In this document: piece by piece, positions 6,001 through 9,000 of the stretch
Layout: each line of letters opens with the position of its first letter
Position numbering within the stretch: the stretch's first letter is position 1
Virus record (IMG/VR): IMGVR_UViG_2562617113_000019
Reading direction: 5' to 3' (one strand)
DNA: 43,127 bases
Origin: a virus
Taxonomy: Duplodnaviria; Heunggongvirae; Uroviricota; Caudoviricetes
Position numbers: made by a program

Positions 6001-9000
6001 AGGAAAATTAGTGGCAACAGCTTTAAAATAGCTGCTCAGTTTTTTACCTGATTTAACGATCAGGTAGTCCAGAGTGGCGCAGGTCGATTCAAAATCGTCG
6101 CTTGCCCACAGGACGACGTCAGGTTCACCGGATGATTTTTTCGCTTTCCGTAACAGGAAGAGTGGTTTCGCGCTCATTGTTTTTTAACCTCAACTCAGAT
6201 TAAAATTCGTTTTGTTCAGTGAATGATCTTGCCGGATACACACTGTTCATAGCCTGCGCCATACGCAGGCTATTTCTTTCAGATTTCACCTTTTAATTTC
6301 ATTGCAATCAGCGTTGCCAGAAATGCGGCTTTTTTTTCTGCGGGCAGATTCTTACCAATGTGCACCAGACTCATTTTTTTGACACCTTCGTTAAGTGTTT
6401 TAACGTTGCCTGATGGACCATCGATATCAACCACAGTGAATGGGGTTTCTTTATTTTGTGTTTTAATCACGTGGCCAATGCGTTTTCCTTCCAGATAAAC
6501 CTCGTGAACAATGTTACCAGTAGTAACAACAGTGGATTCATAATTGGCAATCATGTTTTTCTCCTTAATTAAGGTTGAGCGAATCCCTGCCATTGTTGGC
6601 ATAAATTCAGTTTCGAGTAGTCAGTTAATTAAAGTTCGTGTGCCATCTGGTGTTTTTCGGCGCAACTTTCACTACAATATTTTTTCATTTCCGTCGTTGG
6701 GATAACTCCACGCATGAAATGAAGTGGTATTTTAATACTTTTGCTTTCTTGAATTTCTTTATTGCAAAGGTGGTAAGCACATTTGATTTTCTTAGCCATC
6801 ACCATGATTCCGCTTTTACAGGTAAACCATCACGACCGAGGAAGACTTTAATCATGCAGTCAGAAATGCATGTTTTTGTAGTCAGGCTACGAATATAAAG
6901 TTTTCGCTTTTTAATATTGTTTGCCGAGGCGATATATGTCCGACCTTCATGAAGAACATAATCGCCAGGGGTTACACACTGACGTGGTATTTCATCAGTT
7001 CCGAAGTGATGAGCAATCATAATCATCTCCATTTTTTCAAATGAACTTTGTTGATGCGGTGCCTGGTGCCTCCAGGTGATGTTAACCAGTTAACAATTAA
7101 CACCGGATACAAATACCCCCCCAAACTAATATAGAGTTTTTTAACTGTTCCGCGTGCGCTTAGCCGCATTCACCGCATCACAAAATTGACTTTAAAAAGG
7201 GCGGACATCAGTCGAACTTCAAGAAAAAACCGATGCCGCCAAAGACTACACACAGCAATGTCGTTATTCACAACCGGAGGCGCACTCCCACCATTTATAT
7301 TTAACAGACAAGACCGACTCTTTATTGATACCGGAAATGCGCCTTCGTGTTGTGCCCGGTTTTATTTCACCACCTCCGGGCTTCGGTGGTCTCGGCTATA
7401 CCCCTACAGCGAGAGCTTGTGTTAACATTTCAATACCCTTACAGTCGAGAGTTATTGAAATGTTGGATGTATTTACTCCATTGTTGAAACTTTTTGCTAA
7501 AGAGCCACATCGAAAGACTTATGTACACGATTATCATTTTTGGCCTCACTCTCTGGCTGATACCGAAAGAGTTTGCTGTCGTATTTAATGCTTATACTGA
7601 AATAACCTGGCTCTTTCAGATTATAGTTTTTGCCTTTTCTTTCGTGGTTGCCATTTCCTTCTCAAGATTGCGAGCACATATTCAAAAACATTATTCATTG
7701 CTACCAGAGCAACGAGTATTGCTTCGTTTATCTGAGAAAGAAATCGCTGTATTTAAAGATTTCCTTAAAACAGGAAATCTTATTATCACTTCTCCTTGCC
7801 GTAACCCGGTTATGAAAAAATTAGAACGGAAGGGCATCATTCAACATCAGAGTGATGGCGCAAACTGTTCTTATTATCTCGTCACCGAAAAATACTCCCA
7901 CTTTATGAAGTTATTCTGGAACAGTAGGAGCAGACGTTTTAATCGTTAGCTTACTGTGTACTTCTCCAACCAGCGACGCGCGCCAACTTCGGTTTTAAAC
8001 GTTTTGCTTTTGGTATACGTCATGGCGGTGAACGTTCCATCCTGGTTGGGGAACACGCCACACACCAGGGATTCGTTGTTGCCAAGATCGATAGTATCCA
8101 TGTTGACCTCATTTTCCCTTAACGCTAGGGGAATTAGCTTCATAGTTGCTCCGTATCGTGGAGCCTACGACCTGCTTTTAACCACATCAGGTGAGGTGAT
8201 ATCCTTACAAATGGTAATTTGCTGTAAGGATATTAATTATGGATATTAAATTTCGCTGTCCTCATTGCCGATCTCGCTACATTGAGATCGATGAGCACTC
8301 TGGCTCTGACAATGATCGTTTTATCTGCGGTGATTGTTTTGCGGAAATCAAAGATTCTGATTTCAGTGAACACTTTAATAAAACAATCAATAAAATCATC
8401 CGGACAGTTAAAAACCGCAGGAACAAGTAGTTTGTATAACTTCTCAATCTGATGTCTCAGGGGGCTGGTATCTATTTTTAACACCAGTCCCTGCTTTTCA
8501 TCTGCGATCATCTTCGTATCCCCTTAACGCCGGGTGGCGGAACTGTTTGCTGAGAACACCGTGCGGTGTTTTGATGGGATGTAATTTAGTTTTCTCATTG
8601 TTTTTGGTCAAGTGTTTTTGATGAGAAAACTCAATATTTGACTCAAGATAAAGCCAATACATTGAAATGTAAGGCTTTAAAAATTTGTGATGGGGTGATT
8701 ATTGATGTTTGTTACGCTTGCGAGCTTCTAATAGCTCAGTAAATAGGCGATTAAAATTCTCAACTCGAGCGCTGAGTTCACTGATTTGTGCTTGTTGTTC
8801 GGATTTTGGAAGTGCGCGATACAGTCGCAACATCTCCAGTTCATCTTCCGATAAGTCTAAGGTGCTATTGAGTGAAACTGGGGCATCCGGAGTTTTATCC
8901 TCATCACCGAACAGTATCCAGGTCGGTGAGCATTGTAATACCTCGGCGAGTCTATGCAAATTTTGCCCGCGCGGGGCTGTATGGTCACTTTCCCATAATG

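What the first reader, a model, noticed from the sequence alone, without database searches (positions are those of the whole stretch)
7062..7095. Inverted repeat TGTTAAC-CA-GTTAACA immediately upstream of kilR
A 7-2-7 inverted repeat at 7080-7095, next to a short GC hairpin (CCTGG...CCAGG, 7062-7076), lies 60-70 nt upstream of the kilR start on the minus strand. It is a candidate regulatory site for the leftward kil/recombination operon.
Basis: seen in the sequence. Interest (0 to 1): 0.2.

Follow-up and report, generated by a model that had tools for sequence, protein, structure and literature searches.

The report
Structured RNA leader upstream of kilR
The two small repeats are real, but they are helices of a conserved, pseudoknotted, about 130-nt RNA domain (a divergent STnc100-family element) that lies in the transcribed leader between the sRNA KilS and the cell-division inhibitor gene kilR, not a DNA operator.

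Summary
Both repeats exist exactly where reported, in a Rac-like E. coli prophage. As DNA repeats they are not beyond chance: the window has 5 perfect 7-2-7 repeats against 3.1 in shuffles, no second operator-like copy, and no promoter next to them. On the minus strand they belong to a structured RNA at 7041-7190. CCTGG/CCAGG is hairpin P5. The left arm of the "palindrome" is the 3' arm of hairpin P4. The right arm is the P4 loop, which forms a pseudoknot with CAGUUAA at 7141-7147. Rfam STnc100 matches at 43.1 bits, just under its cut-off of 47 (E 5e-8). Covariation across 141 distinct relatives supports every helix, with all 8 pairs of P4 covarying. The exact palindrome occurs in only 1 of 178 distinct copies, and K-12 Rac breaks it while keeping the helix. 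The domain follows the terminator of the KilS sRNA (its homologue in Qin is DicF) and ends 10 nt before the kilR ribosome-binding site. In this kil/dicB-leader subfamily it is closed by a duplex of about 21 bp. In Qin that duplex contains the published RNase III-dependent 72-nt DicF 3' end. Best reading: an RNase III-processed leader module. Its function beyond processing is unknown.

The parts
7298..7306 (-). Probable extended -10 (TGTTAAATA) of the kilS/kilR leftward promoter. The transcription start is inferred at about 7291.
   Evidence: Alignment to K-12 Rac, where the KilS 5' end is 1418502 and the element reads TGTTAAATT. An independent transcription start is reported in PMC8175672. The promoter assignment itself is my inference. 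The consensus scan did not call it, and there is no -35.
7194..7291 (-). KilS-like sRNA: a DicF-type body and intrinsic terminator, with an RprA-like seed.
   Evidence: Homology to the annotated K-12 ncRNA kilS b4833. Rfam DicF matches at 44.9 bits against a cut-off of 48, at 7199-7254. KilS was verified by northern blot in K-12 (PMC8175672).
7171..7190 (-). P1 5' strand (core 7171-7180, extension 7181-7190). It starts just 3' of the KilS U-tract (7194-7198). The predicted RNase III cut is at 7180|7179.
   Evidence: the repeat finder I1, the MFE fold and pair probabilities of 0.9-1.0 for most pairs. 15 of 20 P1 pairs covary in A1. The window has 21 pairs. The cut position is taken from the Qin homology.
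7152..7167 (-). P2 hairpin (GCGGC-UAAGC-GC-A-CGC), preceded by the conserved linker AAU.
   Evidence: 99.4% paired. RNAalifold recovers it independently. 4 of 5 pairs covary across the family.
7105..7151 (-). P3: a variable arm closed by GGA/UCC (7149-7151 with 7105-7107). It carries the 5' pseudoknot strand CAGUUAA at 7141-7147.
   Evidence: The closing pairs covary, A-U with C-G and G-C. The interior varies in length and sequence among relatives.
7078..7104 (-). P4 hairpin: 5' arm 7097-7104 and 3' arm 7078-7085. Its loop (7086-7096) contains UUAACUG (7087-7093), which pairs with 7141-7147 to form a pseudoknot.
Evidence: P4: 7 of 8 pairs covary in A1. All 8 of 8 covary with 96.4% paired in 141 distinct sequences. 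Pseudoknot: the longest helix within an element averages 6.18 bp against 4.45 bp for mismatched partners, p = 6e-32, with 72 distinct helices.
7062..7076 (-). It is nearly invariant in the family and abuts the P1 3' strand with no spacer.
   Evidence: The Rfam STnc100 consensus has a stem-loop here. It is 98.9-99.7% paired, and the middle pair switches U-A to G-C in 28 of 71 sequences. The 21-nt motif is found in more than 120 places across Enterobacterales.
7041..7061 (-). P1 3' strand (core 7052-7061, bulged A at 7051, extension 7041-7050). It ends about 10 nt before the kilR Shine-Dalgarno GGAG (7027-7030). The predicted RNase III cut is near 7050|7049.
   Evidence: The SD and start codon are unpaired in the MFE fold.
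6799..7020 (-). kilR coding sequence (FtsZ inhibitor), the gene downstream of the leader.
   Evidence: ORF list and the annotation of the 99.9%-identical genome and of K-12.

Best explanation
The flagged repeats are parts of one folded RNA, not a DNA site. Leftward transcription starts about 200 nt upstream at the kilS promoter and makes the sRNA KilS. Polymerases that read through the KilS terminator transcribe a domain of about 150 nt (7041-7190, minus strand) before reaching the kilR ribosome-binding site. This domain is a divergent, operon-embedded member of the STnc100 family. It has a closing helix P1, hairpin P2, a variable arm P3, hairpin P4 whose loop forms a pseudoknot with the 5' side of P3, and the invariant hairpin P5 stacked against P1. 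All of this is shown by structure and covariation.

The kil/dicB-leader subfamily has lengthened P1 to about 20-28 bp of near-perfect duplex. I infer that this is an RNase III site. Cleavage would separate KilS, with a 3' extension of about 14-19 nt, from the kilR message and excise the folded core. It would leave kilR mRNA with a short monophosphorylated leader of about 29 nt, and so set how much KilR is made from read-through transcripts. Whether processing raises or lowers kilR expression, and whether the excised core acts in trans, is not known.
For: Shown:
- Rfam STnc100 match at 7047-7187 (-), 43.1 bits, E 4.8e-8, with both reader hairpins falling on consensus stem-loops. Relatives in other genera score 50-90 bits.
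- Fold z-score -4.79.
- Covariation in 71 subfamily sequences: 88.8% paired, 29 of 48 pairs changed on both sides, 0 of 500 shuffles as high, slid controls 33-40%.
- Covariation in 141 distinct sequences from about 100 species-level loci: 93.5% paired, 28 of 32 pairs covary, P4 8 of 8.
- The pseudoknot is supported family-wide.
- G-U outnumbers A-C 203 to 91 in paired cells, which places the RNA on the minus strand.
- Context: 64 of 71 subfamily copies are followed by SD plus an ORF within 110 nt (dicB, kilR, others), and 45 of 71 are preceded by a terminator-like GC stem and T-run.
- KilS and its transcription start in K-12.

Supporting the RNase III step:
- P1 has a median of 22 bp in the subfamily (48 of 71 have at least 18) against a median of 7 bp in other STnc100-like elements (1 of 107 has at least 18).
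- The P1 extension is kept by compensatory changes in unrelated flanks.
- In K-12 Qin, the RNase III-dependent 72-nt DicF (PMC5069750 citing Faubladier 1990) ends 19 nt after the 53-nt form. That is L243:554, inside the 5' strand of the homologous 20-bp P1.
- RNA-seq of an rnc deletion mutant lists the dicF-dicB spacer (position 1649470, inside the core) and the kilR-sieB spacer among sites covered only in the mutant (PMC5371410 Table S1).
- No internal promoter was found in the dicBF operon.
Against: - The window copy scores below Rfam's gathering cut-off (43.1 against 47). It matches only model positions 22-154 and lacks the family's own 5' and 3' ends.
- No experiment exists for this element in a kilR context.
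- The rnc-mutant RNA-seq evidence rests on 26 and 41 reads and is spatially coarse. The Rac position maps near the kilS promoter, not to P1.
- A 2023 study of Qin describes RNase III only at the 5' end of a 190-nt DicF precursor and detected no dicF-dicB read-through species.
- The kilR SD is not sequestered in the predicted fold, so no translational effect is evident.
- The elaborate conserved core (pseudoknot, invariant P5) is far more than an RNase III site needs, so processing cannot be its whole function.
- The alignment used was fitted to the structure by the covariance model.
Confidence: 0.6

Rival explanations
1. DNA operator. The palindrome binds a dimeric repressor or activator that controls a kilR promoter.
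For: A perfect 7-2-7 palindrome lies 60-75 bp upstream of kilR. Three or four TTAAC units occur at 8-bp spacing in this lineage.
Against: The exact palindrome occurs in 1 of 178 distinct homologues, and it is broken in K-12 Rac while the RNA helix is kept. No promoter is adjacent, and the mapped transcription start of the unit is about 200 nt upstream. There is no second copy at the immunity region or elsewhere. The substitution pattern is compensatory for RNA pairing, with G-U tolerated on one strand only. A 7-bp inverted repeat is expected by chance.
Confidence: 0.04
2. Cis-acting leader without cleavage. The folded domain acts in the intact read-through transcript, for example as a 5' stabiliser, a barrier or platform that modulates Rho loading before kilR, or a protein- or ligand-binding switch that affects kilR translation.
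For: 64 of 71 subfamily copies sit directly in front of SD plus an ORF. kilR is reported to rise when NusG falls (OxyS study). From my own recollection, not checked here, it is also silenced by Rho-dependent termination. The core is more complex than a processing site needs.
Against: SD and AUG are unpaired in the predicted fold, and no alternative pairing with the translation-initiation region was seen. The same core occurs as stand-alone sRNA genes with their own terminators (46 of 178) and in tandem arrays without ORFs. This argues that the core's function is not tied to a downstream gene. The long P1 duplex specific to leader copies points to RNase III.
Confidence: 0.2
3. Trans-acting base-pairing sRNA. 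The domain is the body of an STnc100/PasD-type Hfq-associated sRNA released from the leader, and its main role is to regulate other mRNAs.
For: It is related to Rfam STnc100. STnc100 and PasD are described as prophage sRNAs, and an overlapping transcript (EcOnc27) is reported as Hfq-binding. STnc100 RNA has been detected in vesicles.
Against: The window copy lacks the family's 3' linker and terminator (model positions 155-206), where a seed and Hfq site would be expected. Nearly all conserved nucleotides are buried in helices. No target of STnc100 has been validated; the papers call the proposals hypothetical.
Confidence: 0.13
4. Chance repeats with no function.
For: Repeats of this size are expected by chance in 43 kb.
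Against: They are conserved as pairing partners across genera, with compensatory changes. Rfam and fold statistics are significant.
Confidence: 0.02

Closest known systems
Rfam RF02076 STnc100 (gammaproteobacterial prophage sRNA), with the related PasD sRNAs of EPEC
   Same: Same helices P1, P2, P4 and P5. Same invariant GGUGAAU...CACC(N)GGAGGCACC(N)GGCACC motifs, prophage location and Enterobacterales host range.
   Different: It scores below the gathering cut-off (43.1 against 47; K-12 Rac 28 and Qin 34 bits). It has no promoter or terminator of its own and is embedded in a leader. The P2 sequence differs (GCGGCU..GCGC.CGC instead of CCCCC..GGGGG). P1 is lengthened from about 7 to about 22 bp. 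The pseudoknot is not part of the Rfam consensus shown.
dicF-dicB spacer of prophage Qin (K-12) and its RNase III processing (Faubladier 1990)
   Same: Direct homologue, about 85% identical across the core. Same order: sRNA with terminator, then core, then SD and a cell-division inhibitor gene. The long P1 sits at the same position.
   Different: The downstream gene is kilR (a direct FtsZ inhibitor) rather than dicB (acts through MinC). The upstream sRNA is KilS with a different seed. RNase III cleavage is documented only for Qin.
RNase III sites in phage early transcripts (lambda N leader, T7 early intercistronic sites)
   Same: Works alike: a long duplex in a phage early polycistronic RNA, placed just upstream of a ribosome-binding site, which separates functional RNAs and sets expression of the downstream gene. 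This comparison rests on established knowledge and was not tested here.
   Different: Those sites are simple irregular hairpins. Here the duplex closes a conserved five-helix pseudoknotted domain that also exists independently.
Processed structured RNAs of phage immunity regions (P1/P7 c4, P4 CI, IsrK)
   Same: Small structured RNAs cut out of phage early transcripts. In some relatives of this locus, C4 and IsrK elements follow the core directly (L020).
   Different: No sequence or Rfam similarity. c4 and CI act through loop-target antisense pairing with repeated sites in the same transcript and are matured by RNase P. I did not run a systematic search for repeated sites complementary to the loops. 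The only loop partner seen is the internal pseudoknot strand.
Lambdoid repressor operators
   Same: Short palindromic DNA near an early leftward gene.
   Different: No repetition, no adjacent promoter, and the palindrome is not conserved.

Membership tests
Rfam RF02076 STnc100 | Covariance-model score at or above the curated gathering score (47 bits) | tested here: not met
   43.1 bits, E 4.8e-8 locally and 3.5e-6 for the whole window. K-12 Rac scores 28 bits and Qin 34 bits. The match is significant but sub-threshold, which explains why it is unannotated.
Rfam RF02076 STnc100 | Consensus helices (closing stem, 5' hairpin, penultimate hairpin, invariant CC(N)GG-AGGCA-CC(N)GG hairpin) kept with covariation | tested here: met
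   A model built from the window's subfamily retrieves bona fide STnc100 loci at 40-76 bits.
Rfam RF02076 STnc100 | Stand-alone gene with its own 5' leader and 3' linker plus intrinsic terminator (model positions 1-21 and 155-206) | tested here: not met
   The match covers positions 22-154 only. The 3' side runs into the kilR SD, and the 5' side abuts the KilS terminator.
Rfam RF02076 STnc100 | Expressed, Hfq-associated RNA | not testable with these tools
   Literature exists only for other copies.
RNase III processing site | About two turns (20 bp or more) of largely uninterrupted duplex | tested here: met
   21 pairs in the window. The subfamily median is 22, against 7 in other family members. 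Pair probabilities are about 1.0 for the inner 17 pairs.
RNase III processing site | Position homologous to a mapped RNase III-dependent end | tested here: met
   The 72-nt DicF end falls at nt 11 of the 20-nt P1 5' strand in Qin. The Qin and window sequences align without gaps there. The 19-nt offset is arithmetic from published lengths, not a mapped coordinate.
RNase III processing site | rnc-dependent cleavage in vivo or in vitro at this locus | tested here: inconclusive
   Only coarse, low-count RNA-seq entries exist for the dicF-dicB and kilR-sieB spacers in K-12.
Repressor operator / regulatory DNA palindrome | Palindrome conserved in homologous elements | tested here: not met
   1 of 178 distinct elements has the 7-2-7 repeat, and 39 of 178 have GTTAAC-NN-GTTAAC. 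It is broken in K-12 Rac.
Repressor operator / regulatory DNA palindrome | Overlaps or adjoins a promoter, with further copies at co-regulated promoters | tested here: not met
   No promoter-like site on the minus strand in 6700-7700 (a simple consensus scan). No further copy beyond chance. The transcription start lies about 200 nt upstream.
DicF RNA (RF00039) / KilS, for the upstream partner | DicF-type body and terminator; homology to annotated kilS | tested here: met
   44.9 bits against a gathering score of 48. About 94% identity to K-12 kilS b4833.

The most novel reading that the evidence does not exclude
The STnc100-type core may not be a conventional base-pairing sRNA at all. It may be an autonomous folded RNA module: a five-helix junction locked by a loop-strand pseudoknot, with an invariant GGAGGCA hairpin stacked on the closing stem. 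Enterobacterial phages and plasmids deploy it as stand-alone genes, in head-to-tail arrays of up to six copies only 7-50 nt apart, next to tRNA genes, and as leaders of toxic genes such as kilR and dicB. Such an organisation would fit a protein- or ribosome-binding decoy, a tRNA-like processing or punctuation signal, or a small ribozyme. The kilR/dicB leaders would then be cases where the module was co-opted, with an added RNase III duplex, to gate cell-division inhibitors.
Probability: 0.25. Interest if true: 0.7.

Novelty: new variant of a known kind. Interest (0 to 1): 0.4.

Why it matters
kilR and dicB are prophage genes that stop E. coli cell division. They are toxic when de-repressed and have been linked to stress survival. 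Their leaders turn out to share a conserved, elaborately folded RNA domain that current annotation misses, because it scores just under the Rfam threshold in Rac, Qin and this prophage. About 4,000 of 5,426 complete E. coli genomes carry a match that includes this stretch. Recognising it gives three things. It provides a structural rationale for the old observation of an RNase III-dependent DicF 3' end. It links KilS/DicF, the spacer and the division inhibitor into one processing unit. It also ties these leaders to the widespread but functionally uncharacterised STnc100/PasD family, including the copy downstream of stx2. The practical lesson is that short palindromes near phage genes should be checked on the RNA level before being called operators.

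Tried and rejected
1. Operator idea. I searched the window for further copies with up to 3 mismatches and found 4 against 2.08 expected, none at the immunity region. Rejected.
2. Promoter next to the repeat. The consensus scan found none on the minus strand. The real start is upstream at kilS.
3. It scores -2.2 kcal/mol against -5.3 to -8.0 for P4, and its pair probability is 0.01. On alignment A1 it is 78% paired, only because most rows share the GTTAAC repeats. Its count of pairs changed on both sides is not above shuffles (390 of 500 as high). My first attempt was off by one column and is void.
4. RNAalifold on the MAFFT alignment recovered P1, P2 and P5 but not P4, because divergent rows are mis-registered by 1-2 columns. 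This was resolved with a covariance-model alignment.
5. Protein-coding reading of the 48-aa ORF at 7023-7169 (-). Homologues differ by indels that are not multiples of three (element lengths 121-148 nt) and by compensatory changes. Rejected.
6. tRNA mimicry. tRNA genes lie within 60 nt of only 2-3 of 178 distinct elements. Stand-alone copies have P1 of 6-9 bp, not a sharp 7. ARAGORN calls none of the elements. Left as speculation.
7. c4/IsrK identity. No Rfam hit on the element. These families occur downstream in some relatives.
8. Literature gaps. Faubladier and Bouche 1994 (PMC205167) is not held. The supplement of the RNase III cleavage map (PMC6212723) is not held. The Rac transcription-factor paper has nothing on this spacer.
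Full report
**Setting.** The window is a Rac-like lambdoid prophage of E. 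coli. The stretch 6790-7500 is 99.9% identical to strain E21845/O/A and about 92% identical to K-12 Rac. The local gene order is recE, a racC-like gene, ydaE, kilR (6799-7020, minus), then a 440-bp spacer, then sieB (plus), ydaF, and a repressor/cro pair.

**Observation.** TGTTAAC-CA-GTTAACA is at 7080-7095 and CCTGG-TGCCT-CCAGG is at 7062-7076, exactly as reported, 60-75 and 42-56 nt upstream of the annotated kilR start. Judged only as DNA repeats they are ordinary:
- 5 perfect 7-2-7 repeats in the window against 3.1 in dinucleotide shuffles;
- 69 against 36.8 for spacers 0-10;
- 77 against 46.8 for 5-5-5 hairpins.

The motif has no further copy beyond chance (4 matches with up to 3 mismatches against 2.08 expected, none at the immunity region). 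No sigma-70-like promoter is called on the minus strand between 6700 and 7700.

**What it is.** A permissive Rfam scan of 6900-7500 gave two adjacent minus-strand hits just under their curated thresholds. DicF matched at 7199-7254 (44.9 bits, cut-off 48). STnc100 matched at 7047-7187 (43.1 bits, cut-off 47, E 4.8e-8, model positions 22-154 of 206). Both remain significant for the whole window. Both are enclosed by a long-range stem that the repeat finder had reported as arms 7034-7061 and 7171-7198.

The minus-strand RNA folds accordingly: 171 nt, -57.7 kcal/mol, z = -4.79, and 0 of 200 shuffles as good. The fold has these parts:
- closing helix P1 (7171-7190 with 7041-7061);
- P2 (7152-7167);
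- a variable arm P3 (7105-7151);
- P4 (7097-7104 with 7078-7085);
- one unpaired A;
- P5 (7062-7076), which abuts the P1 3' strand directly.

The loop of P4 (UUAACUG, 7087-7093) is complementary to CAGUUAA (7141-7147) on the 5' side of P3, which makes a pseudoknot.

Its left arm is the 3' arm of P4. Its right arm is the pseudoknot strand in the P4 loop. Both happen to contain UUAAC in this lineage. The two arms pairing with each other is disfavoured: -2.2 against -5.3 to -8.0 kcal/mol, and pair probability 0.01 against 0.92-0.99.

**Relatives.** The invariant 21-nt P5/P1 motif occurs in more than 120 places in species-representative genomes of Kosakonia, Enterobacter, Salmonella, Klebsiella, Citrobacter, Pantoea, Erwinia and others. 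There are often several copies per locus. Many of these reach the STnc100 gathering score (50-90 bits). A motif specific to the window's P2 retrieved 120 further viral contigs. In E. coli, a match that includes this stretch is present in about 4,000 of 5,426 complete genomes, upstream of kilR or of dicB.

**Covariation.** Three analyses agree.
- On a MAFFT alignment of 71 distinct subfamily sequences, my structure gives 88.8% paired cells. 29 of 48 pairs change on both sides, 0 of 500 shuffles reach this, and slid controls give 33-40%. P4 has 7 of 8 covarying pairs, P1 15 of 20, and the pseudoknot 4 of 7. RNAalifold independently recovers P1, P2 and P5.
- A covariance model built from 30 subfamily sequences found 147 matches in 100 loci. 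On that alignment (141 distinct rows) 93.5% of cells pair and 28 of 32 pairs covary. P4 is 96.4% paired with all 8 pairs covarying, and P5 is 98.9% paired. Shuffles give 73% and slid controls 38-45%. The caveat is that this alignment is fitted to the model.
- The pseudoknot was tested without relying on column alignment. Within an element, the longest helix between the 14 nt after P3's 5' strand and the P4 loop averages 6.18 bp. Between non-matching elements it averages 4.45 bp. It is at least 6 bp in 77% against 19% of cases (Mann-Whitney p = 6e-32). There are 72 different helix sequences, starting 0-2 nt after P3 in 83% of cases (an earlier cruder version is).

G-U cells outnumber A-C cells 203 to 91, so selection acts on the minus-strand RNA.

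The exact palindrome is found in 1 of 178 distinct elements. K-12 Rac has GACUGUAA/UUGCAGUC where the window has GGUGUUAA/UUAACAUC. Both sides changed at several positions, the helix is intact and the palindrome is gone.

**Transcriptional context.** The reference K-12 annotation carries an ncRNA kilS (b4833, 1418405-1418502, minus) in the kilR-sieB spacer. Bar et al. 2021 found it by RIL-seq as an sRNA from the kilR 5' UTR, confirmed it by northern blot, and noted an independent transcription start (PMC8175672). By alignment, KilS corresponds to window 7194-7291. It is preceded by TGTTAAATA at 7298-7306, which I read as an extended -10 (the promoter reading is inference). KilS is the DicF-like RNA.

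The repeats therefore lie in the transcribed leader, after the KilS terminator, not at a promoter. The structured domain begins just 3' of the terminator's U-tract and ends about 10 nt before the kilR SD (GGAG, 7027-7030), which stays unpaired in the predicted fold. The same layout occurs in Qin: dicF, spacer, dicB. Among 71 distinct subfamily copies, 64 are followed within 110 nt by SD plus an ORF (dicB, kilR, a TerB-like gene in P7 and D6, and others). 45 are preceded by a terminator-like stem and T-run.

**Mechanism.** The feature that sets the leader subfamily apart from stand-alone STnc100 genes is the length of P1. The median is 22 bp (48 of 71 have at least 18; the window has 21), against a median of 7 bp (1 of 107 has at least 18). 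The extension is maintained by compensatory changes in quite different flanking sequences, for example in the Lelliottia, Klebsiella and Pseudescherichia copies. A near-perfect duplex of 20 bp or more is the classical RNase III substrate.

[quoted passage not shown] Nineteen nucleotides beyond the annotated 53-nt end is L243:554. That is position 11 of the 20-nt P1 5' strand. A staggered cut on the other strand would leave dicB mRNA with a leader of about 25 nt. By homology, the window would be cut at about 7180|7179 and about 7050|7049, leaving a kilR leader of about 29 nt.

An RNA-seq comparison of wild type and an rnc deletion mutant lists position 1649470 (dicF-dicB, inside the core; 26 reads in the mutant against 0 in wild type, flagged as a known site). 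It also lists 1418510 (kilR-sieB; 41 against 0) (PMC5371410 Table S1). These entries are consistent with the model, but they are low-count and spatially coarse. The Rac position maps nearer the kilS promoter.

[quoted passage not shown] However, it discusses RNase III only at the 5' side and saw no long read-through species.

I therefore regard three points as shown: it is an RNA, this is its fold, and it is an STnc100 relative embedded in the kilR leader. The claim that P1 is an RNase III site separating KilS, core and kilR mRNA is a well-motivated inference. The direction of the effect on KilR synthesis is unknown. The core is far more elaborate than a cleavage site needs. It also occurs as stand-alone genes with their own terminators (46 of 178) and in head-to-tail arrays, so it must have a function of its own that nobody has defined. 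Published proposals for STnc100 are explicitly hypothetical.

**Comparison with known systems.**
- *Closest by homology:* Rfam STnc100/PasD. Membership by the curated score fails narrowly, and the stand-alone architecture is absent. The helices and invariant motifs are present.
- *Direct homologue:* the Qin dicF-dicB spacer.
- *Closest by mode of action:* RNase III sites in phage early transcripts (lambda N leader, T7), from established knowledge.
- *Not matched:* it is not a c4/IsrK RNA (no Rfam match) and not an operator.

I found no paper in the held library that describes the dicF-dicB or kilS-kilR spacer as an STnc100-type fold, or that describes the pseudoknot.

**Verdict.** I classify it as a new variant of a known kind: an operon-embedded form of a known but functionally uncharacterised RNA family, closed by an RNase III-type duplex. 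Interest is moderate.

Noticed in passing
window 7225-7262 (-), within the KilS-like sRNA 7194-7291: The 5' half of the KilS/DicF-like sRNA carries about 30 nt (GAAUAACGACAUUGCUGUGUGUAGUCUUUG) that is nearly identical to the conserved 3' region of the core-genome sRNA RprA (Rfam RprA hit 7219-7335, 30.8 bits, E 0.12). The same seed follows STnc100-like cores in other prophages (the L002/L122 group). This could be a prophage mimic of an RprA seed. I found no paper discussing it.
   Followed up: partly
window about 7509 (sieB, 7461-7949 +): Relative to both the 99.9%-identical genome E21845/O/A and K-12, the window has one extra A (GAGCCACATCG against GAGCCAC-TCG) plus one substitution 8 nt upstream. 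This shifts the sieB reading frame after codon 16, so sieB appears frameshifted here.
   Followed up: partly
window 7424-7435 and 7453-7464: A perfect 12-nt inverted repeat (AACATTTCAATA / TATTGAAATGTT, 17 nt apart) overlaps the sieB start codon at 7461-7463. It begins with another TGTTAAC (7420-7426). It could be a translational hairpin or an operator for sieB. Not examined.
   Followed up: no
window 7275-7289 and 7333-7347 (-): The arms of a 15-nt imperfect inverted repeat bracket the kilS promoter and 5' end. The K-12 position with rnc-dependent coverage in the kilR-sieB spacer (1418510) maps to about window 7299, between these arms. It may be a second RNase III target, analogous to the site upstream of DicF in Qin.
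   Followed up: no
L041 950-1991; L080 4134-4758; L065 6397-7021; L074 3233-3604: STnc100-type cores occur in head-to-tail arrays of four to six copies separated by only 7-50 nt, in Pantoea plasmid and chromosomal loci, with no room for ORFs between them. The organisation resembles tRNA arrays.
   Followed up: partly
L079 3717-5512; L088 4776-5127; L004 5491-5933; L121 (phage P7 ban operon) 1705-3435: Some cores are interleaved with or abut phage tRNA genes (in L088 the core ends at 4903 and the tRNA starts at 4902). In P7 and D6 the core sits between tRNA genes and a terB-like gene. This is rare overall: 2-3 of 178 distinct elements.
   Followed up: partly
L020 3017-3424: In a Shigella Rac-like prophage the same core is followed within 300 nt by IsrK (61.5 bits) and C4 antisense RNA (75.7 bits) matches, so the early-left transcript there is a string of structured RNAs.
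   Followed up: no
window 1557-1735 (+), 19214-19389 (+), 19548-19628 (+): The RalA antitoxin sRNA (197 bits) and a sok antitoxin (105 bits) are present. A sub-threshold isrK-like match (33 bits) lies 160 nt after sok.
   Followed up: no
window 3055-6177 (-): The longest recE ORF is 1040 aa, but the closest genome annotates a shorter product (2652 nt) and K-12 RecE is annotated at 2601 nt, so the start is ambiguous.
   Followed up: no
L242 / K-12 Rac P5: In K-12 Rac the otherwise near-invariant P5 hairpin reads CCUGG...CCAGA, so the closing C-G pair is lost. The element scores only 28 bits. This may be decay in the cryptic prophage.
   Followed up: no
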